Positions 4,473 through 33,992 of a DNA stretch of 43,981 bases are shown one piece after another. Source of the DNA: a virus (taxonomy: Duplodnaviria > Heunggongvirae > Uroviricota > Caudoviricetes); IMG/VR virus record IMGVR_UViG_3300045988_012512, positions 1 through 43,981 of that record. One strand, 5' to 3'. Under the pieces are notes generated by a model. The model was given only the letters and a program-made list of their open reading frames with translations, was not told where the DNA came from and searched no databases. Every line of letters starts with the position of its first letter. Position 1 is the stretch's first letter. A program made the position numbers and the translations under genes.

Positions 4473-5873
4473 TTAACCGTCCACATTAAAATCAATACGG
4501 GTGATATATTTACTACCCCACGCAGAATCGGCCTGAGGGATAGTCGCGTAATCATCTACAGCCTGAACGTTTACCACAGAGCCATCGGAATAGGTTATGT
4601 TGATGCTTGTCGCGCCATTCATGGTTACTTTCGCGGACGCTGTCGAGCGGGTGACAACAACGGCATCGGTTATTACCGGGGATGTTGTATTTTGGTTTAC
4701 CTCTACAGTAGCCGCGGATAATTTAACCCCTGAAACGCCATCCCCCGTAAATGACCCGGTAACTCCGTCTGAATATATCCATGCGTCCATCCGTATGCTC
4801 ATTGTTTTATCTTCTGTTGCGGTAATCGTCTCCGATATTCGGAACCACCCTCCGCCTACGTCGGTTACATCTGTACCGCCTGGGCCGGAATAAATGCTAC
4901 CATCCCGCAAATCAACAACTGCTGAGCCTAATACTGTAGGAAGTTCTCGCACGTACATCCGTATGAAATTGTATCCGTTTGCTTTTGCGAAGAAACTAAA
5001 AGTAACCATGTCGCCAACACCAACGCTAACATCTACAGTCTGGTTTATTAGGTGGTTACCGCTTGTGGCGGTAGCAGTTACGTCGTACGTGCCTGCGGCT
5101 GTTAAAACACCTGTTTCAGATACTGATACACTCACCAAACCTTTGTTCCAGTTTGACGAAGAGAAATTGCTTGAATATAGGAATCTGTTAGTTACTGATG
5201 CCTCCGGTGGCACACGCCCAACTGCCGAGCCATCGATAAACGTAAGTGGCCATTCACCGGCGGCGGACTGCACAAGATTGCCGTTTCGGTTGATGTAATA
5301 AACCTGCGGCCCGTCATACACAATGCGGCTATCAAGAGTCGACGCCAGAAGGTTAATCGGCGGGTATCCTGCAGGCCCTTCATTGCTCCAGATGCGCGGG
5401 AACGTCGTCTCGTAGTTCGCATATATTTTCAGGAAACTACCCAGACAGTCCCCGTAACAACCGTACAAATCCGGAAGATTGTTAATCAGGCACTGGTTCT
5501 CAAGGTCCTGGAACGGCGATTTCTCGGCGGTTGCCGTGAAAGTAATCGTCCAGTTAATGCCATCTTCGGTGGACTCAGCGATGGTGGACGTGATTGTTAC
5601 CTGGTAATCCTCAATACCCATGCCGAAGTCGTGCGCCATCCAGAAACTTGACGCACCGCCGTCTACTTTTTCTAGGAACGACAGAAATGCCTGCCGCCCC
5701 AGCGCCGATGTAATCAAGGTTACGCTCACCGGGAACACGTCGTAATATGTGTCGCGTCCCTGACGCACCCCGCCACCGGCTAAATCTACACTCCAGACGT
5801 TGTTGCGTCTGGTCATTGAGTAGCCTTTCGACACAATAGGCTTAAGGCTACGTGGGAAATATAAGTCGGTCAT
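4473..5873 (-). CDS. minor / distal tail protein with C-terminal Ig- or carbohydrate-binding-like extension
   Basis: 466-aa ORF directly downstream of tape measure; stop/start overlap at 5873. Confidence 0.45.
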   Translation of the reverse strand: MTDLYFPRSLKPIVSKGYSMTRRNNVWSVDLAGGGVRQGRDTYYDVFPVSVTLITSALGRQAFLSFLEKVDGGASSFWMAHDFGMGIEDYQVTITSTIAESTEDGINWTITFTATAEKSPFQDLENQCLINNLPDLYGCYGDCLGSFLKIYANYETTFPRIWSNEGPAGYPPINLLASTLDSRIVYDGPQVYYINRNGNLVQSAAGEWPLTFIDGSAVGRVPPEASVTNRFLYSSNFSSSNWNKGLVSVSVSETGVLTAAGTYDVTATATSGNHLINQTVDVSVGVGDMVTFSFFAKANGYNFIRMYVRELPTVLGSAVVDLRDGSIYSGPGGTDVTDVGGGWFRISETITATEDKTMSIRMDAWIYSDGVTGSFTGDGVSGVKLSAATVEVNQNTTSPVITDAVVVTRSTASAKVTMNGATSINITYSDGSVVNVQAVDDYATIPQADSAWGSKYITRIDFNVDG

Positions 5874-8161
5874 TATTTAAACCCCGGCGCGTTTCTTGTG
5901 GCCTTGCGGGCCTTGCTAATCTTACTGTTGCTGTTCTGCAAAGACGCGGCGACTTGCTCCTCTATGATGATACGCAGACGGCCTTCATCATCTTGTTCTG
6001 TGGATACGTTGCCGATTTGAGAACTTGTGTTGTTTACGATAGTAACATTAGACGGGCCGGAAGAAGACCCGTTTTGCCCCATAATTTCTTTCATCTGCTG
6101 CGCGGTGCGCACGCGTGATGCACCAGCTGGCATGATAACTTCTGGTTTACCACGTTCTGCGATGGTGGAAGCCTGCCCCGCAGATAACTGACCGCCCTGT
6201 TCACGCGCGGACCGGATAGCGGAAACCTGCGCCATACCTGCACCAACGGCAGCGGCAGCGGCTACAGGGGCCAGGAACGGGCCAACTACAGGTATAGCTG
6301 CCGTTGACTTGTACGCCTCAATAGCTGCGGTGTACGTGGCGATAGTGGCCTGTACGATAGCGAATGCCTTGTACGCGCCAGAAGCCTCACCCAACGCAGA
6401 CCCGATGTTTGAGGCCATGTTACCAAAGGCCGTTGCCGTTGCATCGGCACGTTTGGTTGCGTATTGCTCGTTGATGGCGTTAAGAGCGGCCTGATACTGC
6501 TTCTCGCTAATCAAACCCTGCTCGCGGTACTTATCCGCTACCGCCAGTTTCTGCTGTTCCTGGATGTCGAGAAGCTCAAGCTCAGTAGCGTTCTGACCCA
6601 TAATCTGAGCCATGAAGTCGTCACCTTTCTGCTGCTTTTCCTGGGCTTCTTTCTGGCGTTTATCCAGTTCATCTTGTCGTTTTTGCCCGGCTTCGAGGAC
6701 GATAGCTGTTTTAGCTTGTTCATATTCTTTCAGGGACAACGCGCCCTGGCTGTAGAACTCTTTTGCCTTAGCCAGTTTCTGCTGTTCCTGCGCGTCGATA
6801 GCCTTTAACTCGTCGTTGTTCTGACGGGCCAAAGTGTCGAGGTAATCTTGCGCCTGATTCCGCAATTGCTCTGCTTTCTTGGCGGCGGCTTTTGCTGCTT
6901 TATCGTCGGTTGTCCCCACCCCACCAGTTCCGCCCTTTTTATTAACAAGGCTGGCTAAGTCAATTTCTTGCTTCTTACGCTCGTCGTACTGCTTGCGCTG
7001 TTCCTCAATTTCTTTCTTACGCTGTTTCGAGCGGTCAGTTATTGCCTGTGATTCTGCCTCCGCGCGTTTTATGCTAGCGGCGTACGCGGCGTCGGCCTCT
7101 GCGGTCAGGTTTTTAAATGTTAGCGCCGCCGTTTTGCTCGGGTCAAACACGTCGGCAAGGGTCTGCCCTAACGCTACAGCGTAATCGTCGATGCGCTGGA
7201 ACCACGCAATAACCTCGTGAAATGTCTGCTGGATGTCCGGCAACCACTCACGGATAGCATCCGGTATAGTCCCCAGCGAGTCAGACATATCAACGGATTT
7301 GTCCTCGGTATCGAATGCCAGGTCATTCAAGGCGTCGGAAATAAACTTGAATGACTCATTGAACAGCGCCACCCAATCCTGGAGCGTGGCGGCTATCTCA
7401 TTAGACGCGATGGCGTCGGTAAGCGCCGTGATAGCGTCTTCCGCTGTGGCCGCTTGCTCACCTACGGCGTCGCCAAAACCAGACTGCGCCACCGCAAGAA
7501 CAAGACCGTCGAAGGAGTCGGCGAGGCTCGATAACTGGCCGTCTAGCGTCTTAGAGCGCGTCTCCATCGCCCCGGCAAAATCGGTGTTGCCGATATTCAG
7601 GAGGTATTTCTGAATCTCTTCGGAGTTCTTCTTAACCGTGGTCGTTACGCCGCGGAACGTGAACGAAACTGTATCTGCCTGTTGCGACGACTTGATGCCG
7701 AACTCTTTTAAGCGCTCAAATTCAAATGTACTGGCGTCGGCAACTGCCTCAATCATCTGATTAAGGTCTTTACCCATAGCCGCCGCGGTGTTGCCGTAGG
7801 AGATTAACGCCTCTTTGCTGGGGTTCAGACCGAGCGCAACGAGCTTGGTAAACCCCTCTACCGCCTGATTGAGACCATACGGGGTCTCTTTTGCGAACTG
7901 TTGCAGGACGCTGAAAGCCTTAGCCGCGTTCTCGGCGCTCCCGGTCATCGTGATGAGGCCGGAGTTCAGCTTATCGAAGTTTCGCTGGGAATCCACCAGC
8001 GCGCTGAACACCTGCTTAGCGGTTTCCAGACTGACAACGGCGGCGGCGGCGGCCCCCGCCGCCTTGGTAAGCCCGTTCAGTTGTGATGTGGTTTTATCGA
8101 CGCCGGTCGATGATACTCGTACTATCAAGCTAGCGGTATCAGCCATGATTTCTACCTTCAA
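5873..8161 (-). CDS. tail tape measure protein
   Basis: 762 aa, Ala/Gln-rich with long coiled-coil segments; located between chaperones and tip genes. Confidence 0.8.
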   Translation of the reverse strand: MKVEIMADTASLIVRVSSTGVDKTTSQLNGLTKAAGAAAAAVVSLETAKQVFSALVDSQRNFDKLNSGLITMTGSAENAAKAFSVLQQFAKETPYGLNQAVEGFTKLVALGLNPSKEALISYGNTAAAMGKDLNQMIEAVADASTFEFERLKEFGIKSSQQADTVSFTFRGVTTTVKKNSEEIQKYLLNIGNTDFAGAMETRSKTLDGQLSSLADSFDGLVLAVAQSGFGDAVGEQAATAEDAITALTDAIASNEIAATLQDWVALFNESFKFISDALNDLAFDTEDKSVDMSDSLGTIPDAIREWLPDIQQTFHEVIAWFQRIDDYAVALGQTLADVFDPSKTAALTFKNLTAEADAAYAASIKRAEAESQAITDRSKQRKKEIEEQRKQYDERKKQEIDLASLVNKKGGTGGVGTTDDKAAKAAAKKAEQLRNQAQDYLDTLARQNNDELKAIDAQEQQKLAKAKEFYSQGALSLKEYEQAKTAIVLEAGQKRQDELDKRQKEAQEKQQKGDDFMAQIMGQNATELELLDIQEQQKLAVADKYREQGLISEKQYQAALNAINEQYATKRADATATAFGNMASNIGSALGEASGAYKAFAIVQATIATYTAAIEAYKSTAAIPVVGPFLAPVAAAAAVGAGMAQVSAIRSAREQGGQLSAGQASTIAERGKPEVIMPAGASRVRTAQQMKEIMGQNGSSSGPSNVTIVNNTSSQIGNVSTEQDDEGRLRIIIEEQVAASLQNSNSKISKARKATRNAPGFK

Positions 8162-27457: not shown

Positions 27458-27707
27458 GCTTATGTCCTCCGTATGACAGCCACGCCTGACGAATCTGGCG
27501 CAGCGCAACTAATGTGATTAATGTCTCAGGCAGCGTTGGTGACACGCTGCCCTGTAACAGGTGGATACATCCGGCGGCGCAGACGATAGCAGTCAGGATA
27601 TAGAGCACCCGGCCGAACAGCCCGTCATCAACGCTGGGATGGTACACATTAAACAGCGATGTACCCCCGATTGCCAGCATACCGCCGAACCAGAATAACT
27701 CATTCAT
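27435..27707 (-). CDS. holin-like membrane protein
   Basis: About 90 aa from ATG 27707 (MNELFWFGGMLAIGG...) with 2-3 hydrophobic helices, immediately upstream of the endolysin. Confidence 0.55.
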   Translation of the reverse strand: MNELFWFGGMLAIGGTSLFNVYHPSVDDGLFGRVLYILTAIVCAAGCIHLLQGSVSPTLPETLITLVALRQIRQAWLSYGGHKRVSKYFR

Positions 27708-28008
27708 CCGGGCCTCCTCGACGTGAGATGTATTCCCCGGCGACGATACCGGAGAGGCGGGAATAGATAGGCATCCAGAGAATAGCGATGATGAAACCCA
27801 GACCAGCGATTTCACGCTCCCCGGTAATGCCGAACCATTGGGCAGCGAGAGGCGCACCGAATACGGCGCAAGCGAAGCCGGTTACAATAAAGAATAAGCC
27901 GTCGATGGGTCCAGAAATAACGGACTTATGTTGTCGTAGTCCGATGACCCCTCCGGCGAGTGCGGCAGCGAGAAGCCAGCCTGTCACTGTTTCAGTAAAT
28001 TTATCCAA
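27700..28008 (-). CDS. holin / antiholin-like membrane protein (three predicted transmembrane helices)
   Basis: 102 aa with three hydrophobic segments; adjacent to the second holin-like gene. Confidence 0.55.
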   Translation of the reverse strand: MDKFTETVTGWLLAAALAGGVIGLRQHKSVISGPIDGLFFIVTGFACAVFGAPLAAQWFGITGEREIAGLGFIIAILWMPIYSRLSGIVAGEYISRRGGPDE

Positions 28009-28083
28009 GATGAATCCTCCAGGTGCGTATTAAGTATGCAGTAACTGGAGGATAGCACGGTTAGGAATTATCTTAATAACGGT

Positions 28084-28377
28084 TTATTTATGACGCCAGA
28101 TGTATTGTCGTCTCTGCGGTTTCGTCGGAATATCATCGTATCCGAGCGATTTCCAGTAATTAAATAACCGATTAGCGATTGCAGCGCGTTCCTGCGTTTT
28201 AAACTCACCGAGATTCACGGCCTTCCAGTTCTGGAATCCACAGGCGCGGACAGCTTTGCGTCGGGCCTGAATCTCAGGGTACAGCGCGTTACCCCGACGC
28301 TTGCATATCTGTGTTTTAGCTCTCGGTGACAGCGGCGAGAGGCCGCTTCGTTTCAGGATGTCAGTTGCAAGGCTCAT
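28084..28377 (-). CDS. hypothetical basic protein
   Basis: Likely start at ATG 28377 (ATGA overlap); ORF track extends to 28422. Confidence 0.35.
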   Translation of the reverse strand: MSLATDILKRSGLSPLSPRAKTQICKRRGNALYPEIQARRKAVRACGFQNWKAVNLGEFKTQERAAIANRLFNYWKSLGYDDIPTKPQRRQYIWRHK

Positions 28378-28565
28378 ATACCGAGAATCCCGCTGGCCAT
28401 TTCTTCGGTAGCTTTCGAACACGGCTCATACATTACCTGTTCAGCGAAGTTACGCAGCTTATGCTCAAGCGCCGCGTAATCATCGTATGTCACATAGTCG
28501 CCGTAGTCCCATTTAGCCATCTCAGGCTCTTCCCATCTGGTAGATAATTCGTATCTCTGTACCAT
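28374..28565 (-). CDS. small protein, paralogue B (MVQRYEL...)
   Basis: Begins with the same ATGGT-CAGAGATA nucleotide string as the adjacent paralogue. Confidence 0.35.
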   Translation of the reverse strand: MVQRYELSTRWEEPEMAKWDYGDYVTYDDYAALEHKLRNFAEQVMYEPCSKATEEMASGILGI

Positions 28566-28763
28566 CACTCCACCCCTTCCACATGTGTAACTGACCCACA
28601 GTTCGCGCACTCGACGTAATCCGGGAACTGGTCTTTGTATTTCTGCAACTCGGCTTTTAGTTTCGCATAGTCCCTGTAGCCAACCCATTCACCGTCTGCG
28701 TCTTTCTCTAAATCGATATGCCCGGTAACCCAGTCTTCTTTTAAATCATATCTCTGCACCATG
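28565..28763 (-). CDS. small protein, paralogue A (MVQRYDL..., C-terminal CANCG)
   Basis: AGGAG RBS before ATG 28763; tandem paralogue of 28374..28565. Confidence 0.4.
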
Positions 28764-28967
28764 TTATCTCTCCTGTTTACCAAGTCGCTTAGGTGAGCAG
28801 ATAGCGCGTACCTCTGAATCGTTTGGCTTGTCACCCTGAAACAGGAAGTGCGCGTTCTCTGCGGCGCGTGCCGCTGACTGGCACGCCTCCATCGAATAAA
28901 ACGTTTCTGATGCAGCGAGTTGCATCTGGCCTGCGGACAATACCCAGATAAATAAGATGCTGGTCAT
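28764..28967 (-). CDS. small protein with N-terminal hydrophobic signal or anchor
   Basis: MTSILFIWVLSAGQMQLAAS hydrophobic N-terminus, two Cys; ATGA coupling. Confidence 0.4.
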   Translation of the reverse strand: MTSILFIWVLSAGQMQLAASETFYSMEACQSAARAAENAHFLFQGDKPNDSEVRAICSPKRLGKQER

Positions 28968-29512
28968 GTCGTCTCTCCACATCTGCGGCACACAAAATAA
29001 TCCTCGTCGGCATCAAGAACCCAATCATGATCACATTCCTGAGTATCGTTTTTCGGTTTATATTCCTTGTCGTCCCACTCACGTTCACCACATTTAGAGC
29101 AAAGCTCGCTACCAGGAACGTTGTTCGGATTGCCTTCGCTGAGAAACAACCCAGGCATAATAATCCAAGAGTGCTCGCATTCCTGGGTATCTTCTTTACG
29201 GCAACCAGATTGCTCCGGCGGTACAGGCGTCTGGGTGCACCGACAATTTACCGTTGGCCCGGGCGCATGTTCGCCAACCACGTAGCTCTGGCCCCTAGAA
29301 ATGTACCCACCCTTACGCACAAGTTTGTAAGCCTCTACATCCCCGGTGGCGGTAGCCAGCGCCATATGTAACTCCTTAATCTGCACCGAAGCATCACGTA
29401 ACTGATTCTTAAGTGACTGCACCTCATGAGCCAGGTCTTCGCTCCGGCTGTTATTTACCTGCTGCCGTAGCTGGTCGATCAGGTACTCGAATATTTCGTT
29501 TTTGTTACTCAT
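28964..29512 (-). CDS. coiled-coil protein with two zinc-ribbon-like repeats
   Basis: QECEHSWII...CSKCGERE and QECDHDWVL...CRRCGET; start at ATG 29512 (ORF track 29533). Confidence 0.45.
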   Translation of the reverse strand: MSNKNEIFEYLIDQLRQQVNNSRSEDLAHEVQSLKNQLRDASVQIKELHMALATATGDVEAYKLVRKGGYISRGQSYVVGEHAPGPTVNCRCTQTPVPPEQSGCRKEDTQECEHSWIIMPGLFLSEGNPNNVPGSELCSKCGEREWDDKEYKPKNDTQECDHDWVLDADEDYFVCRRCGETT

Positions 29513-29642
29513 CAGCTTCACCCCTTTTCTCATCCACCCCGACTAGCAGCGATTTAGTGTCGCCGTCACACACCGAAGTGCTACTAATTATTTCGTAAGC
29601 GTCTACCAGTTCGCCTAAAGTCCAGCTACCGTACCAGCCCAT
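29505..29642 (-). CDS. hypothetical small protein (45 aa)
   Basis: GAGAGGAG RBS before ATG 29642; first gene after the promoter at 29673. Confidence 0.3.
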   Translation of the reverse strand: MGWYGSWTLGELVDAYEIISSTSVCDGDTKSLLVGVDEKRGEADE

Positions 29643-29672
29643 CTCTGTCTCTCCTCTCGCTTGTGTAAATGA

Positions 29673-29701
29673 ATAGTAGCCTATTCTATCTTAGCGTGCA
29701 A
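29673..29701 (-). promoter_or_regulatory. sigma70-type promoter (TTGCAC-17-TACTAT)
   Basis: Same architecture as the promoters at 9029 and 30772. Confidence 0.5.
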
Positions 29702-29858
29702 GTAAATTTTATTGGTGTTTGTATTGTTGTATCTCCCGCAATAGTCGCTTCGATTGTGGCGTTTGGTGAAAGTGTCGCTTTTTGACGACACTAAGTTAAA
29801 GTTGTACGCTGCTGTGTAGCAGCGTAAGTCACTCAGTAAAATCCCAAACTATTGAACA

Positions 29859-30062
29859 TCACACTTCTGGCGGCTCAGGTAACGGCATCCAGTGAGAAAA
29901 CACTTCCTGCGCATGTTCCCCGTAGTCCGCCCGGAAATCACACCAAGTTACCCCATCCCACTCGTACACATTGTTCTGGACAACACCGCCCATACTACTG
30001 ACGACCAAAACTGGTTGACCTAGCCCCGGCATCCGCGCACTACACTTAACCCACTCGCCCAT
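29859..30062 (-). CDS. DUF551-family phage protein
   Basis: C-terminal HWMPLPEPP signature. Confidence 0.6.
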   Translation of the reverse strand: MGEWVKCSARMPGLGQPVLVVSSMGGVVQNNVYEWDGVTWCDFRADYGEHAQEVFSHWMPLPEPPEV

Positions 30063-30065
30063 AAA

Positions 30066-30209
30066 TCACCCCTTATTCATCGCAGTTTGCACACCAGCTT
30101 TCCACGCCCGCCACGCGAGACGCGTCTTAACGTTCAGGTACTCTTTCTTTGAACCCTTGTTAACCGGCAGACCCTCGACCACAGCCCACCGTTCAAATGC
30201 TTCTCTCAT
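30066..30209 (-). CDS. hypothetical small protein (47 aa)
   Basis: ATGA-coupled to the upstream ORF. Confidence 0.3.
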   Translation of the reverse strand: MREAFERWAVVEGLPVNKGSKKEYLNVKTRLAWRAWKAGVQTAMNKG

Positions 30210-30361
30210 ACCAGAACCTCACATTCATCCCGATACACGAACAATAACGACCCTTTGTACTCAATCATAAAACCATAATGGTTGCTGCTGAACGCCAGAA
30301 AAACATCACCTACCGAGATACCGAAATCTATAAGCCTGCGGTCAGTTATACGGATTCGCAT
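30206..30361 (-). CDS. hypothetical small protein (51 aa)
   Basis: TAATG coupling to the upstream ORF. Confidence 0.3.
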   Translation of the reverse strand: MRIRITDRRLIDFGISVGDVFLAFSSNHYGFMIEYKGSLLFVYRDECEVLV

Positions 30362-30549
30362 TAACGGCAACCTCCCTCAGAGTCTTCGGCACGAGCATCA
30401 TGATTCGATGCCGTTCTCTCCCGCACTTCTACCATCCTTCCTACCACTGCGGCGTAATGCACATACAGCTTTATTGCGTAATCTTTATTACTTGTCGTCT
30501 CTGTTATGACTCCGTCGACGTATACGTCGTAAATTAATTCTTCCATCAC
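30361..30549 (-). CDS. hypothetical early protein
   Basis: 62-aa ORF, ATGA-coupled. Confidence 0.35.
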   Translation of the reverse strand: MMEELIYDVYVDGVITETTSNKDYAIKLYVHYAAVVGRMVEVRERTASNHDARAEDSEGGCR

Positions 30550-30737
30550 TTCGCCCCTTTGAATTTAAAATTGTTGCCGATTAGCTTTAAATTCTCTTCC
30601 GCTACGTATACCACCGAATTTACTCCTCTCACCTTTTGCACAGTAACTCCGTACTCTCCCGGAAATAAAGCGGATTTTAATTCAATCACACCGTATTTAC
30701 CGTCGGCGCATTTAACCAACTGACCCTTCTTAAACAT
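30546..30737 (-). CDS. hypothetical early protein
   Basis: GAGGAG RBS before ATG 30737; first gene after the promoter at 30772. Confidence 0.4.
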   Translation of the reverse strand: MFKKGQLVKCADGKYGVIELKSALFPGEYGVTVQKVRGVNSVVYVAEENLKLIGNNFKFKGAK

Positions 30738-30771
30738 AACCACCACTCCTCTGTCTCGTTTCGATAAGTGA

Positions 30772-30800
30772 ATAGTATCCTATTATATTGGGGTGTGCAA
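30772..30800 (-). promoter_or_regulatory. sigma70-type early promoter (TTGCAC-17-TACTAT)
   Basis: -35, spacer and -10 nearly identical to the promoter at 9029..9057. Confidence 0.55.
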
Positions 30801-31152
30801 GAGAATAGTTACGTTGCCGTTGTGATTCTTTCGTTTCTTTAAAGAGTACGCAACGCAGTGGGTGGGCGATAGCCCACCCCAGCGGAGTGAAGTACTCTCT
30901 ACCTTGCTTACGGCAACTAAAGAAACTTTTAATTATCAAGTACTTATGAATGGAGGTAAAATTTAAATAGACGGGGTCTTTCTTGTCACTTGCTGTTACT
31001 TTTAGGAAACTTAGATACTAACGTTACCAAGAGTACTGTTTAGCGCCCCGCTTTAGGGCGGGGCTTTAAGTACCCGAGACTTAAGAATAATGTTTCTAAG
31101 TAATTCTGAACTAAGGCCCTTCGATACGTTGATTTTACAGCTACATTTTATT
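30801..31152. promoter_or_regulatory. divergent control region with nested palindromes, AGTAC repeats and a conserved hairpin
   Basis: About 350 bp without credible ORFs between divergent operons; inverted repeat AGAGTAC/GTACTCT around an 8-bp GC hairpin; hairpin element at 31042..31068. Confidence 0.5.
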
Positions 31153-31192
31153 TTGTCAATAGGTTGTGTTTAGTTATTATAGGTGTTATAGT
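31153..31192 (+). promoter_or_regulatory. tandem sigma70-type promoters (TTGTCA-16-TATTAT and TTGTGT-17-TATAGT) for the plus-strand operon
   Basis: Hexamers with canonical spacing upstream of the gene at 31222. Confidence 0.45.
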
Positions 31193-31221
31193 TGTTTAAC
31201 TTGATAAAGAGGGCGTGTAAA

Positions 31222-31401
31222 ATGACACAGAAAGAAGTAGCAGACTTAATCGGAGTTTCCACTATGACTCTTAATCGCTGGCTTCGGTCCGGTAAGTTCC
31301 CGGAGTGTTGCCGTGTTATTAACGGCTACCGGCAGCCAGGTACGTTTGACCGCGCTACCGTGGAGGCGTGGATTAAGGAGAACGTGAAAGATGCTAACTA
31401 A
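31222..31401 (+). CDS. small HTH DNA-binding protein (AlpA/excisionase-like)
   Basis: MTQKEVADLIGVSTMTLNRWLRSGKFP; AGAGGG RBS (ORF track starts at 31192 with a non-ATG codon). Confidence 0.5.
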   Translation: MTQKEVADLIGVSTMTLNRWLRSGKFPECCRVINGYRQPGTFDRATVEAWIKENVKDAN

Positions 31402-31666
31402 ATTCCAGAAACACATATTAATGTGTGCGCGCAGACTTACCGAGGCGAACGGTGCTTTTACGGTAGATGGGCTTCGTAGATACCGGTTAGATAATTACGG
31501 TGTAAATCCGATTAAACATGCTTTAAATGTTCTTGAGCAACACGGAGAGGTTCTTAATAAAGGAAAGTTTTATCGGGCAACAAGAGCAACGCCGATTACA
31601 GAGAAAGCGAGAAGTATTGGAAAAGTGTTGGTCCCCGAGGGTAATATCTCCCGCGACCTGGAATAA
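31391..31666 (+). CDS. hypothetical protein
   Basis: 91-aa ORF overlapping the upstream stop. Confidence 0.4.
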   Translation: MLTKFQKHILMCARRLTEANGAFTVDGLRRYRLDNYGVNPIKHALNVLEQHGEVLNKGKFYRATRATPITEKARSIGKVLVPEGNISRDLE

Positions 31667-31724
31667 AAGAAAGCCCCGACGCGGTGAACGCCGAGGCCAA
31701 ATTACTTACTGAAGGAAATACAAC

Positions 31725-33992
31725 ATGTCCGATGTAATTTTATCCTACTCGTGGTCTCGTCGCAACGCGCGGGCAGAGAAAAAGGATATAAACGTCAGAA
31801 CCACACACACGGCAACACTGGACGACCTGAAAGAGTTAATCCAGCCGCTTGATGCTGTCCGTGACGGAATTAACCCGAAGACAGCGCCCGGTTATATCAC
31901 CGCCGCGTGCGACTCAACGCACAGCACCGTAAAAGACCCGGAAACCGGTGACTTTAAGCGAGCGCGTAAAGGCTTCTTCTATCGCTGTGACGCGTCTGTA
32001 AGCAAATCATCGCTGGCGTATCTGGACTTTGACAGCGCAACGCCGGAAGAGTATCAGGAAGCGGTGCGCCTGGTTAAGCGTAGCCGCCAGGCTATGTGTC
32101 TCTACACCACGGCATCCCATACCGATGAGTCACCGCGCTTTCGCGTCGTCATGCCGCTGGGCCGCCCGGTCGAAGGGGGCGACATCATCCGCATACGTCA
32201 TGGATTGCTGGAGCACTTCTTCAAAGGCATGGGCGCTGACCGTAGCGGGTTCACTTTGTCTCAGCCCATGTACCTTCCTCCGGTAGGCTCTCAGGTTATC
32301 TGGTCGCGCCGTAACGACCTTATTGACCCGGAAGAGTTACTGGAAGGCATCCCCGCCGTTGACGTTAGCAGCGCATCTGACTACCAGATACCGGAAGAAC
32401 TGCGCACTGCATTTACTGATGCGTTCGAGGCACTGGCGTTCGAATACGGCGGCATCATGACGCCGCGTGGCCTTAAGATGCCCGCCACACCGGAACACGC
32501 AGAAAACTACAGCGACCCGACCCCGCGCCCGGACGACTTCCTGCTGTGCTTCCCGCGCGAGGGATATGAAGCGCCGAACGTAACGATGATTCACGACACC
32601 GACATCACGGCAACCGAAGGCATGTCGCCGAAAGAGGTGTGGAAGTATGCGTGTGATGCGACCGGACTGCCGTTCAGTGAAGTCGCAGAGGCCATCGGAT
32701 GGGGCGCGCGTGAAGCCGTCTCATGCAGCCTGGATGACCTTGAAGACGACGAGGACTCAGAGGAGGACGAGTTACCGGAACCGGTAAAGGCTGATTTCGT
32801 CGTTGAGGGGTACATGCCGTCGGATTGTATCTGGGATATTGTTGGGGAGTCTGGCACGTATAAATCATTCTATACGCTGGGGATGATGTACCTGAGCGCC
32901 GCCGGATACCGGTTTGCCGGGGCAGATACCCAGCGTTGCCACCATTTCTATATCGACGGTGAGGGCGGTGCCACTACACGCACCCGTATTGATGCACTCG
33001 CGGCTAAATATGGCGAGGAAGGTAAAGATTATGTACATGTTATCGATATGGGTGAAGTCGGAAAACTGAAAAGCCTGATTAAGTTAATGCGCGAAACTGC
33101 GGGTGATGAACCCATCGGCATGGTCGCGTTCGACACCCTTAACCAGACGCTGGCCCTGACGATTGATAAGTTCGACGAGAACAGTTCATCAACGGCAATC
33201 GGCATGGGTAAAGTTATCGCCATCCTGAAAGAAGTACGCGACGCAACTAAAGCCGCGGCAGGCGTTGTACACCATACGCCGAAGGGTGGAAAGAAAGCCC
33301 GTGGCAGTGGAGCATTGTATGCTGGTGTCGACGTGGAACTGACAATCGAACGTGCTACCGACCGTCAGATAAACGTATACCACTCTAAATTTAAGCACGG
33401 GCCTCAACAGAAGACGGTTGGCATGGTACTGGAGTCGGTACAGTTTCGTGAAGCACCGCCGCCGAAAGAGTACCGCGCGGTTGAGTTCCTCGGTAGCACA
33501 GAGGAATACGGCACAATAGTAAACCTCGACCTGCCTGAGCCGCACAAGGCGCTTGTGCTGATGCCGTGGGGCTTCGAGCCGTTCAAGACTGATGAGGAGA
33601 AAGAGCGGGAAGAAGGGTTAACTAACGAAGGTAAACAAAATGTACGTAAAACCGTAGAGAACGCCGTCAACAGTTCCGAGTCCACTATACTCGCGGCGTT
33701 TGAACTGGCGGAGGGGACCTACAACGGCAACGAAGGTATCACGGTATCCGCGGCGAATAAGCTCGCACAGTCTGACCCCAACGCAAAGGCGTTTAACTCC
33801 AAAGAAGCCATAGAACGCGGGAAGATTAAGAAAATGGTTGAGGCTGGGTATCTTGTTCCGGGTACTGACGAAAACAATCAGATAATCCCAGGCCGTTACA
33901 GACTTAACACCCGGATAACGGATAACAAGATTCCGAAGACAATATACGAACCCAATGAGATGCTGACAGTGACAGAGGAGGATTTGGAATGA
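31725..33992 (+). CDS. replication protein: primase-like N-terminal domain plus RecA-like ATPase/helicase domain
   Basis: N-terminal LAYLDFD and SHTDESPRFRV (primase-polymerase-like); central GESGTYKS P-loop and MVAFDTL Walker-B-like segment. Confidence 0.55.
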   Translation: MSDVILSYSWSRRNARAEKKDINVRTTHTATLDDLKELIQPLDAVRDGINPKTAPGYITAACDSTHSTVKDPETGDFKRARKGFFYRCDASVSKSSLAYLDFDSATPEEYQEAVRLVKRSRQAMCLYTTASHTDESPRFRVVMPLGRPVEGGDIIRIRHGLLEHFFKGMGADRSGFTLSQPMYLPPVGSQVIWSRRNDLIDPEELLEGIPAVDVSSASDYQIPEELRTAFTDAFEALAFEYGGIMTPRGLKMPATPEHAENYSDPTPRPDDFLLCFPREGYEAPNVTMIHDTDITATEGMSPKEVWKYACDATGLPFSEVAEAIGWGAREAVSCSLDDLEDDEDSEEDELPEPVKADFVVEGYMPSDCIWDIVGESGTYKSFYTLGMMYLSAAGYRFAGADTQRCHHFYIDGEGGATTRTRIDALAAKYGEEGKDYVHVIDMGEVGKLKSLIKLMRETAGDEPIGMVAFDTLNQTLALTIDKFDENSSSTAIGMGKVIAILKEVRDATKAAAGVVHHTPKGGKKARGSGALYAGVDVELTIERATDRQINVYHSKFKHGPQQKTVGMVLESVQFREAPPPKEYRAVEFLGSTEEYGTIVNLDLPEPHKALVLMPWGFEPFKTDEEKEREEGLTNEGKQNVRKTVENAVNSSESTILAAFELAEGTYNGNEGITVSAANKLAQSDPNAKAFNSKEAIERGKIKKMVEAGYLVPGTDENNQIIPGRYRLNTRITDNKIPKTIYEPNEMLTVTEEDLE

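What the first reader, a model, noticed from the sequence alone, without database searches (positions are those of the whole stretch)
28374..28763. Tandem paralogous small genes in the early operon
Two adjacent ORFs start with nearly the same nucleotide string (ATGGTGCAGAGATATGA and ATGGTACAGAGATACGA) and the same peptide start MVQRY(D/E)L, then diverge; the first ends in CANCG. The stop and start overlap (TGATG). Recent duplication and divergence of small early proteins is typical of host-interaction or anti-defence loci.
Basis: seen in the sequence. Interest (0 to 1): 0.4.

Follow-up and report, generated by a model that had tools for sequence, protein, structure and literature searches.

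The report
Old paralogous small phage gene pair
Two neighbouring 63-65 residue genes of a Kagunavirus phage are old, diverged copies that share an uncharacterised 45-residue front half but carry unrelated tails; they sit in a slot where phages swap such halves freely, and their function is still unknown.

Summary
The window is a Kagunavirus (Guernseyvirinae) siphophage genome.

A and B share an N-terminal domain of about 45 residues: MVQRY, a variable stretch, then G-[DE]-[WY]-V-x-Y-x-D-Y-A-x-L-E, which begins a helix with 3-4 hydrophobic spacing. Their last ~20 residues are unrelated. A ends in a single-CxxC tail ("alpha"); B ends in a helical tail ("beta").

The duplication is not recent:
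- Outside the first five codons the DNA has diverged.
- Two of the four synonymous sites in those five codons already differ.
- The A+B pair recurs in many Kagunavirus genomes.

Among 246 relatives, 62 N-module types combine freely with many C-modules, so recombination occurs at the conserved junction. The flanking genes are ~90% conserved, against ~50% for the slot.

The N-domain has no Pfam family, no solved structure and no usable model. It occurs in other uncultured phages fused to coiled coils, zinc ribbons and DUF551.

Function is unknown. My best guess is small acidic accessory proteins that bind host factors. A Lar-like anti-restriction role is not supported. The finding is ordinary to moderately interesting.

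The parts
28565..28762 (-). Gene A: 65 aa plus stop, pI 4.6. N-domain plus 'alpha' tail with a single CxxC.
   Evidence: Translation. PHROG 29624 at E 7e-28. Family HMM 121 bits. No identical protein in 5.8 billion sequences. The closest full-length relatives are 74% identical; a 154-aa fusion protein, P0240, is 92% identical over A.
28374..28565 (-). Gene B: 63 aa plus stop, pI 4.4. N-domain plus 'beta' helical tail.
   Evidence: Translation. PHROG 37174 at E 2e-6. Family HMM 96.6 bits. Closest relative P0121 is 97% identical.
28628..28762 (-). N-domain of A (residues 1-45): MVQRY strand, variable segment, GEWVGY strand, then the DYAKLKAELQKYKDQ helix.
   Evidence: Profile hits. The AF2 model gives strands 5-9 and 16-20 and helix 29-45, but at low confidence (pLDDT 61).
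28568..28627 (-). 'Alpha' C-module of A (FPDYVECANCGSVTHVEGVE), with one CxxC knuckle.
   Evidence: Nearly invariant in relatives. pN/pS is 0.10 over 23 distinct alleles. Matches the Pfam Lar family only below threshold: 13.6 bits against a cut-off of 28.6.
28437..28565 (-). N-domain of B (residues 1-43).
   Evidence: The AF2 model gives helix 27-46 at low confidence.
28377..28436 (-). 'Beta' C-module of B (VMYEPCSKATEEMASGILGI), predicted as a second helix.
   Evidence: pN/pS is 0.31 over 10 alleles.
28742..28762 (-). 21-nt 5' block of A (ATGGTGCAGAGATATGATTTA).
28545..28565 (-). 21-nt 5' block of B (ATGGTACAGAGATACGAATTA), 18 of 21 identical to A's block.
28764..28967 (-). Conserved upstream neighbour 'g72' (PHROG 3766, function unknown). 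Its stop lies 1 nt before A's ATG.
   Evidence: It is 92-99% identical to the window's copy in related loci, with a median pairwise identity of 90%.
28084..28377 (-). Conserved downstream neighbour 'g97' (PHROG 9632, function unknown). Its ATG overlaps B's stop (ATGA).
   Evidence: It is 90-96% identical to the window's copy in most loci, with a median pairwise identity of 86%.
28964..29533 (-). Variable 189-aa coiled-coil protein with two C-x-H...CxxC zinc modules ('g189Zn', PHROG 6094). Its modules are exchanged with the A/B family.
   Evidence: 39-nt internal repeat. P0240, P0057 and P0239 join an A/B-type N-domain to g189Zn-type segments.
31132..31159 (-). Best sigma-70-like promoter match (TTGACA-16-TAAAAT, 11 of 12) at the head of the leftward small-gene cluster.
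   Evidence: This is a consensus match only. No terminator-like site on the minus strand between here and the lysis genes.

Best explanation
A and B are two old paralogues of a modular family of small acidic phage accessory proteins (PHROG 29624 and 37174).

Each protein has two parts. The first is a shared N-terminal domain of about 45 residues: a conserved M-V-Q-R-Y strand, a hypervariable segment of 8-25 residues, a conserved G-[DE]-[WY]-V-x-Y strand, and a helix with 3-4 hydrophobic spacing that begins D-Y-A-K-L-E-A-E-L. The second is one of many interchangeable C-terminal modules. In this window A carries the 'alpha' tail, with a single CxxC, and B carries the 'beta' helical tail.

The pair arose by tandem duplication long before the sampled Kagunavirus genomes diverged. 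Since then the slot has been remodelled by homologous recombination within the conserved junction and at the conserved 5' block. This shuffles N-modules against C-modules and adds or removes copies (one or two per genome).

The two genes are translated as part of a tightly coupled chain of five genes, upstream of the lysis cassette.

Inferred, not shown:
- The junction helix is a coiled-coil stalk that oligomerises the proteins, so A and B could form homo- or hetero-oligomers.
- The variable hairpin and the C-modules are the specificity-determining surfaces.
- The proteins are dispensable host-interaction factors that bind host proteins, possibly including defence proteins.
For: SHOWN
- The window is a Kagunavirus genome, and the genes lie between a variable zinc-module protein and the holins.
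- A and B share the N-domain, while their tails are unrelated.
- In 29 loci the slot holds one copy (16 loci) or two copies (13 loci), always between g72 and g97.
- A-type genes are in 103 phage records and B-type genes in 35, and they are adjacent where both occur.
- 246 family sequences fall into 62 N-module clusters, and at least 19 clusters occur with two or more C-module types. The window's A-type N-module occurs with alpha, coiled-coil+alpha, alpha+Zn, beta, 'AVIALL' and other tails. The B-type N-module occurs with beta (14), alpha (4), coiled-coil+alpha (7) and others (examples).
- Median pairwise identity is 86-93% for g72, g97 and holin II, against 49% for A and 59% for B.
- The modules are under purifying selection: pN/pS is 0.10 for alpha and 0.31 for beta.
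- An exhaustive profile search finds 113 cluster representatives. Most match only profile positions 1-44, and they carry many different C-termini. Some hold two N-domains in one chain (P0155, P0156, P0160).
- Distant members lie among small genes next to replication and recombination genes of unrelated phages.

SUPPORTING THE INFERENCES
- The hydrophobic spacing is 3-4-3-4 in both helices: A has Y32, L35, L39, Y42, F46; B has Y30, L33, L37, F40, V44 (read from the sequences).
- The 90-103-aa variants insert 25-38 helical residues exactly in this helix.
- Long variants hit only coiled-coil Pfam families, and the PDB near-hits are coiled coils.
- Both proteins are acidic, with net charge about -7.
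Against: - No functional homology at all was found: nothing reaches threshold in Pfam, NCBIfam or PADLOC, and the PHROG matches are to families of unknown function.
- No solved relatives exist.
- The AF2 models are poor (pLDDT 61), and Foldseek gave nothing at E <= 0.001. The fold and the oligomeric state are therefore unproven.
- Hypervariability is not special to this slot. Most small genes of the cluster are equally variable (g63, g61, g51, DUF551, g45, g189Zn). This fits relaxed, dispensable cargo as well as an arms race.
- Expression timing is unknown.
- The relatives used were found with a profile that contained A and B, so that test is not fully independent.
Confidence: 0.55

Rival explanations
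1. One reading: a recent tandem duplication that is now diverging quickly under an arms race, in an anti-defence locus.
For: - Near-identical 17-21 nt at both starts.
- Hypervariable slot between conserved neighbours.
- Small acidic products.
Against: - DNA identity is confined to five conserved codons, in which 2 of 4 synonymous sites differ; the rest is diverged.
- The same 5' block heads most family copies in all relatives.
- The A+B pair, with the same alpha and beta tails, is present in many genomes.
- The tails are unrelated modules, not diverged copies.
- No anti-defence homology was found.
Confidence: 0.05
2. A is a Lar-like restriction-alleviation protein. Its CxxC tail is a zinc ribbon that modulates type I restriction enzymes, and B is a helper.
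For: - A has a weak Pfam PF14354 match (E 0.08, 13.6 bits) and a weak match to phrog_3592, 'Lar-like' (E 0.005).
- Relatives with alpha plus a zinc extension score higher: P0119 at E 7.7e-5 and 23.3 bits, P0078 at E 0.0024.
- 8 of 45 distant relatives hit phrog_3592.
Against: - All Pfam scores are below the gathering cut-off of 28.6 bits.
- The phrog_3592 hits fall on its N-terminal positions (about 4-64), which is the shared N-domain and not a zinc ribbon.
- A has one CxxC only, so it cannot form a four-ligand ribbon by itself.
- B has no such motif.
- Kagunavirus isolates Bas70-75, which carry family members, are described as highly sensitive to RM systems (PMC11990801).
Confidence: 0.07
3. 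The proteins serve the phage's own late functions, for example regulating the adjacent holin/endolysin cassette, rather than acting on the host.
For: - Same strand as the lysis genes, and separated from them only by g97 and a 75-nt gap (27700-28008 is the first holin).
- No terminator-like site in between.
- In EcoPhCCP1 the A-type gene sits directly upstream of the holin.
Against: - No membrane segments, and no similarity to antiholins or spanins.
- Copy number and module content vary freely while the holins and endolysin stay about 90% conserved.
- Distant relatives sit in replication/early regions far from lysis genes.
Confidence: 0.1
4. The resemblance is a chance or convergent N-terminal peptide (MVQRY), and the two genes are unrelated.
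For: BLASTP finds no alignment once the first 7 residues are removed.
Against: - Both match the same profile without those residues, at 41.5 and 44.9 bits against a shuffle maximum of 13.3.
- Natural hybrids join B-type N-modules to alpha tails (P0088, P0057) and A-type N-modules to beta tails (L021, P0244) at the same junction.
Confidence: 0.03

Closest known systems
PHROG families 29624 and 37174 (viral protein clusters, function unknown)
   Same: A matches 29624 over its whole length (E 7e-28). B matches 37174 (E 2e-6) and, weakly, 29624 (E 0.018). 26 of 45 distant relatives also hit 29624.
   Different: These are unannotated clusters. They do not record that the two families share a domain, or that the proteins are built from interchangeable halves.
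Lar restriction-alleviation protein family (Pfam PF14354; phrog_3592 'Lar-like')
   Same: Small phage or prophage proteins with a CxxC motif. There are sub-threshold matches for A and for alpha+Zn relatives. The N-terminal part of phrog_3592 resembles the N-domain.
   Different: The score is below the curated cut-off. A has one CxxC instead of a complete zinc ribbon, and B has none. There is no phenotype evidence, and the host phages are reported as RM-sensitive.
Mosaic small-ORF accessory regions of tailed phages, such as the lambdoid nin/ea regions and the polymorphic internal-protein locus of T4-like phages (from my own knowledge, not tested here)
   Same: Tandem small genes of unknown function sit between conserved genes, vary in number and are exchanged by recombination at short conserved sequences. 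In the T4 internal-protein locus, variable proteins share a short conserved N-terminus.
   Different: Here the exchange points lie inside the genes, so half-proteins are shuffled. The conserved part is a 45-residue domain rather than a short targeting peptide. There is no evidence for capsid targeting.
DUF551 (PF04448) and zinc-module proteins of the same gene cluster
   Same: They belong to the same shuffling network. The N-domain is found fused to a DUF551-like domain (P0171) and to the zinc modules of the 189-aa neighbour (P0240, P0057, P0239).
   Different: A and B themselves contain neither DUF551 nor a complete zinc module.

Membership tests
Unnamed N-domain family (PHROG 29624/37174 core) | Significant match to the family profile over roughly residues 1-45, including G-x-[WY]-V-x-Y-x-D-Y-A-x-L. 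| tested here: met
   A scores 121 bits and B 96.6 bits against the family HMM. Without the first 7 residues they score 41.5 and 44.9 bits against an HMM of 78 distant relatives, and 0 of 1000 shuffles came close.
Unnamed N-domain family (PHROG 29624/37174 core) | Shared three-dimensional fold of the N-domain. | tested here: inconclusive
   The AF2 models have pLDDT 61 and 61.6. A shows a hairpin plus helix; B shows a helix only.
Lar restriction alleviation (PF14354) | Score at or above Pfam's gathering cut-off (28.6 bits). | tested here: not met
   A scores 13.6 bits (E 0.08) and B has no hit. The best relative, P0119, scores 23.3 bits.
Lar restriction alleviation (PF14354) | Complete zinc ribbon with two cysteine knuckles. 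| tested here: not met
   A has a single CxxC (C52, C55). B has one cysteine.
Lar restriction alleviation (PF14354) | Alleviates type I restriction in vivo. | not testable with these tools
   Only indirect evidence exists: Kagunavirus isolates are reported as highly RM-sensitive (PMC11990801).
Recent tandem duplicate | High nucleotide identity along the genes, including synonymous sites. | tested here: not met
   Identity is limited to the first ~21 nt. Two of the 4 synonymous sites in the shared codons differ, and the rest is diverged.
Known anti-phage-defence or counter-defence proteins | Homology to a described defence or anti-defence family. | tested here: not met
   The only PADLOC hit is a spurious 15-bit match to a methyltransferase model. 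Pfam, NCBIfam and PHROGs give nothing relevant. The putative Acr candidates proposed for Kagunavirus EcoPhCCP1 are other proteins. No dedicated anti-defence library was available.
Early-transcribed gene | Transcript peaks early in infection. | not testable with these tools
   Only promoter and terminator consensus scans are available. The one Kagunavirus transcriptome paper found (PMC12645636) could not be mapped to these genes.

The most novel reading that the evidence does not exclude
The 45-residue N-domain is a general-purpose adaptor. Many unrelated phages would use it to bring interchangeable C-terminal effector modules (CxxC tails, zinc ribbons, DUF551, the 'WTVW...IIAYRVV' domain, coiled coils) to one common host or phage target. 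The hypervariable hairpin would be under diversifying selection, for example to escape recognition by a host defence sensor. This would be a polymorphic-effector system in miniature. The A+B tandem would provide two effectors on one scaffold, possibly as a heterodimer through the shared coiled-coil helix.
Probability: 0.12. Interest if true: 0.6.

Novelty: new member of a known kind. Interest (0 to 1): 0.3.

Why it matters
The finding mainly corrects a tempting inference: identical gene starts here mark a conserved domain and a recombination-prone family, not a young duplication.

Its positive value is modest but concrete:
- It defines an uncharacterised 45-residue domain, absent from Pfam, that links two PHROG families and occurs in other phage groups.
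- It documents half-gene shuffling (62 N-modules against many tails) within a slot of about 200-400 bp.

Slots like this are where counter-defence and host-takeover genes are often found. Kagunavirus isolates with one or two copies are now in a public phage collection (BASEL), so deletion and swap experiments are straightforward.

Tried and rejected
- **Library scans of A and B.** Pfam, NCBIfam and PADLOC gave nothing above threshold.
- **PDB sequence searches.** Searches with two family profiles and with the fusion relative P0240 gave only weak coiled-coil or chance hits.
- **Structure prediction.** AF2 with 17-18-sequence alignments gave pLDDT 61 for both proteins. Foldseek against BFVD found no match at E <= 0.001. 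I did not run further fold searches because the models are too poor. In hindsight the two structure jobs should have waited for the deeper alignment (246 sequences).
- **RNA explanation.** An Rfam scan of 27500-31800 gave no hit.
- **Lead: does the B copy explain growth on K-12?** B-type genes are in Bas70-72 but not in Bas74 or Bas75. I rejected this lead because the BASEL paper traces the difference to O-antigen glucosylation by GtrABS and to tailspike variants.
- **Lead: transcript timing from the K1B4 transcriptome paper.** Gene numbers could not be mapped, and the held supplement lists host genes only.
- **Lead: machine-learning Acr candidates in Kagunavirus EcoPhCCP1.** Their sequences are unrelated to A and B.
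- **Lead: a third, decayed copy.** An in-frame 'TIQRYAL' lies 60 nt upstream of A, inside g72. It has 4 mismatches to the 17-mer, so it cannot be told from chance.
- **tblastn of distant members against cultured phages.** Almost nothing was found outside Kagunavirus, so no annotated relatives were gained.

Full report
**What is there.** The window is a complete or near-complete Kagunavirus (Guernseyvirinae) siphophage genome. The 1.6 kb around the finding matches Escherichia phages fTaEco01, G AB-2017, K1H and about 300 other records at 85-96% identity. The annotated relatives have the same gene order.

The two ORFs are on the minus strand. A is 28565..28762 (65 aa) and B is 28374..28565 (63 aa). 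They lie in a chain of five genes joined by overlapping or abutting stops and starts:
- a 189-aa coiled-coil/zinc-module protein (29533..28964);
- a conserved 67-72-aa protein, g72 (28967..28764, ATGA overlap);
- A (1-nt spacer after g72);
- B (TGATG overlap);
- a conserved 97-aa protein, g97 (28377..28084, ATGA overlap).

A 75-nt gap follows, and then come two holins and the endolysin. The cluster starts near a divergent promoter-like region at about 31.15 kb. No terminator-like site is predicted on that strand before the lysis genes.

**Check of the observation.** The repeat finder reports them as a 21-nt repeat, 86% identical. The stop/start overlap is correct. CANCG is not the very end of A; ten residues follow it.

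**Is it paralogy?**
- Full-length BLASTP gives 38% identity over 45 residues, E 2e-7.
- That score rests largely on MVQRY(D/E)L. With seven residues removed, BLASTP finds nothing.
- Profiles settle the matter. Both proteins carry the motif [DE]-G-[DE]-[WY]-V-x-Y-x-D-Y-A-x-L-x-x-x-L.
- An HMM from 78 distant relatives, built without their first seven residues and without A or B, scores the truncated A and B at 41.5 and 44.9 bits. The best of 1000 shuffles reached 13.3 bits. One caveat applies: those relatives were originally retrieved with a profile containing A and B.
- Natural hybrids give independent support. P0088 and P0057 join a B-type front to A's tail. L021 and P0244 join an A-type front to B's tail, at the same junction.
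- The last ~20 residues of A and B are unrelated. A has a CxxC tail ('alpha'); B has a second helix ('beta').

**Not a recent duplication.**
- Outside the first ~21 nt the genes are diverged at the DNA level.
- Within the five shared codons, two of the four synonymous positions differ.
- The block ATGGTNCAGAGATA heads most of 38 family copies in 29 loci. Arg is AGA in 30 of 38 and Gln is CAG in 31 of 38. It is a family trait.
- A-type genes occur in 103 phage records and B-type genes in 35. Where both occur they are adjacent, in the same order.
- Of 29 loci analysed (the window, two GenBank phages and 26 IMG/VR contigs), 13 have two copies and 16 have one.
- B has a 97% identical relative. A as a whole is unique in 5.8 billion proteins. 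Its closest full-length matches are 74% identical, and a 154-aa fusion protein is 92% identical over A.

**A shuffling slot.** Among 246 family sequences the segment between MVQRY and the G-x-W-V motif falls into 62 clusters. At least 19 of these clusters occur with two or more kinds of C-terminus.
- The window's A-type N-module is found with alpha, coiled-coil+alpha, alpha+zinc module, beta and at least five other tails.
- The B-type N-module is found with beta (14), coiled-coil+alpha (7), alpha (4) and others.

The 90-103-residue variants carry 25-38 extra helical residues inserted in the junction helix. Segments of the neighbouring 189-aa protein (its coiled coil and its C-x-H...CxxC modules) also appear fused behind A/B-type N-domains (P0239, P0240, P0057).

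The flanks are conserved. Median pairwise identity is 90% for g72, 86% for g97 and 93% for holin II. The slot is not: 49% for A and 59% for B. Most other small genes of the cluster are equally variable. The alpha and beta tails are under purifying selection (pN/pS 0.10 and 0.31), so these are real coding sequences.

**Breadth of the domain.** An exhaustive profile search of 1.84 billion cluster representatives gave 113 hits at E <= 0.001. Most align only to profile positions 1-44. They carry different C-termini:
- coiled coils;
- cysteine-rich segments;
- a DUF551-like domain;
- a recurrent 'WTVW...IIAYRVV' domain;
- in three cases, two N-domains in one chain.

Two distant members lie among small genes beside ERF recombinase/methyltransferase genes and DNA polymerase/primase genes of unrelated ~43-46 kb phage contigs. 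In cultured phages the family is essentially confined to Kagunavirus and some Salmonella relatives.

**What it is not.**
- No Pfam, NCBIfam or PADLOC family reaches threshold for A, B or 45 diverse relatives.
- No solved structure is related by sequence.
- AF2 models are unreliable (pLDDT 61), and Foldseek gave nothing.
- There is no Rfam hit.
- The only named lead is 'Lar-like restriction alleviation'. A scores 13.6 bits on PF14354 against a cut-off of 28.6. Relatives with an added zinc module reach 23.3 bits. The phrog_3592 hits fall on that profile's N-terminal part, which is simply the shared N-domain. A has one CxxC and B has none.
- Kagunavirus isolates that carry family members are reported as highly sensitive to RM systems (PMC11990801).
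- A and B are therefore not filed as Lar family members.

**How it most likely works.**
- Shown: two proteins with a common front half and different tails, produced from a translationally coupled gene chain, in a slot remodelled by intragenic recombination.
- Inferred: the junction helix has 3-4 hydrophobic spacing in both proteins. It tolerates long helical insertions, and it resembles only coiled coils in Pfam and the PDB. I therefore read it as an oligomerising stalk with the variable hairpin at one end and the exchangeable tail at the other.
- Both proteins are small and acidic (pI 4.4-4.6, net charge about -7). This is common among phage proteins that bind and inhibit host proteins (my own knowledge).
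- I put about 0.35 on a host-interaction or counter-defence role, about 0.1 on a lysis-related role and about 0.07 on Lar-like anti-restriction. The remainder is dispensable cargo or something not yet imagined.

**Verdict.** This is a new member of a familiar kind of thing, the mosaic accessory small genes of tailed phages. It comes with a tidy and previously undescribed domain and half-gene shuffling pattern. Interest is 0.3.

Noticed in passing
window 28964-29533 (-); repeats at 29015-29053 and 29159-29197: The 189-aa upstream protein has an N-terminal coiled coil and two tandem zinc-type modules (TQECEHSW...CSKCGE and TQECDHDW...CRRCGE), seen as a 39-nt direct repeat at 74% identity. It is as variable as A and B (33-99% identity to relatives), and its segments are found fused to A/B-type N-domains in other phages (P0240, P0057, P0239).
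   Followed up: partly
window 28084-29533 (-): Five consecutive genes are linked by ATGA or TGATG overlaps or a 1-nt spacer (at 28964-28967, 28762-28764, 28565 and 28374-28377). This suggests translational coupling along the whole chain.
   Followed up: partly
P0155, P0156, P0160 (metagenomic proteins): In other phages two copies of the N-domain occur in one polypeptide, and the second begins with an internal 'MVKRY'. These look like fused tandem genes, so tandem duplication of this domain is recurrent.
   Followed up: no
P0153, P0156, P0158, P0160, P0207, P0229, P0242, P0258, P0269: A recurrent C-terminal domain of about 60 residues ('AWTVW.GGENPVP...VDVK.RDG...DIIAYRVV') is attached to the N-domain or to the alpha tail. 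No Pfam family matched it in the scan of alignment A3.
   Followed up: no
loci L002, L005, L006, L009, L011, L019, L024, L025, L026 versus window 28009-28083: Many relatives carry about 420 bp of extra DNA between g97 and the first holin, where the window has only a 75-nt gap. This is another variable slot.
   Followed up: no
loci L006 (about 5470-6024) and L022 (about 5264-5817): About 0.5 kb of extra DNA (an ORF of 188 aa in L006) sits between the holin genes and the endolysin core in these relatives. It is absent from the window.
   Followed up: no
window 29859-30062 (-): A DUF551 gene (E 6e-13) is only 30-46% identical to its counterparts in most relatives. A DUF551-like domain also occurs fused to the N-domain (P0171).
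   Followed up: no
window 28802-28822 (-): An in-frame 'TIQRYAL' lies 60 nt upstream of A's start, inside the 3' end of g72. It resembles the family's MVQRY(D/E)L start but has 4 mismatches to the 17-mer. It is probably chance, though it could be a relic of an older junction.
   Followed up: partly
window 31132-31223, both strands: Back-to-back sigma-70-like promoter matches occur on both strands (minus 31159-31132, 11 of 12; plus 31153-31180 and 31196-31223). They lie between the leftward small-gene cluster and the rightward HTH/helicase-primase genes, which looks like a divergent control region.
   Followed up: no
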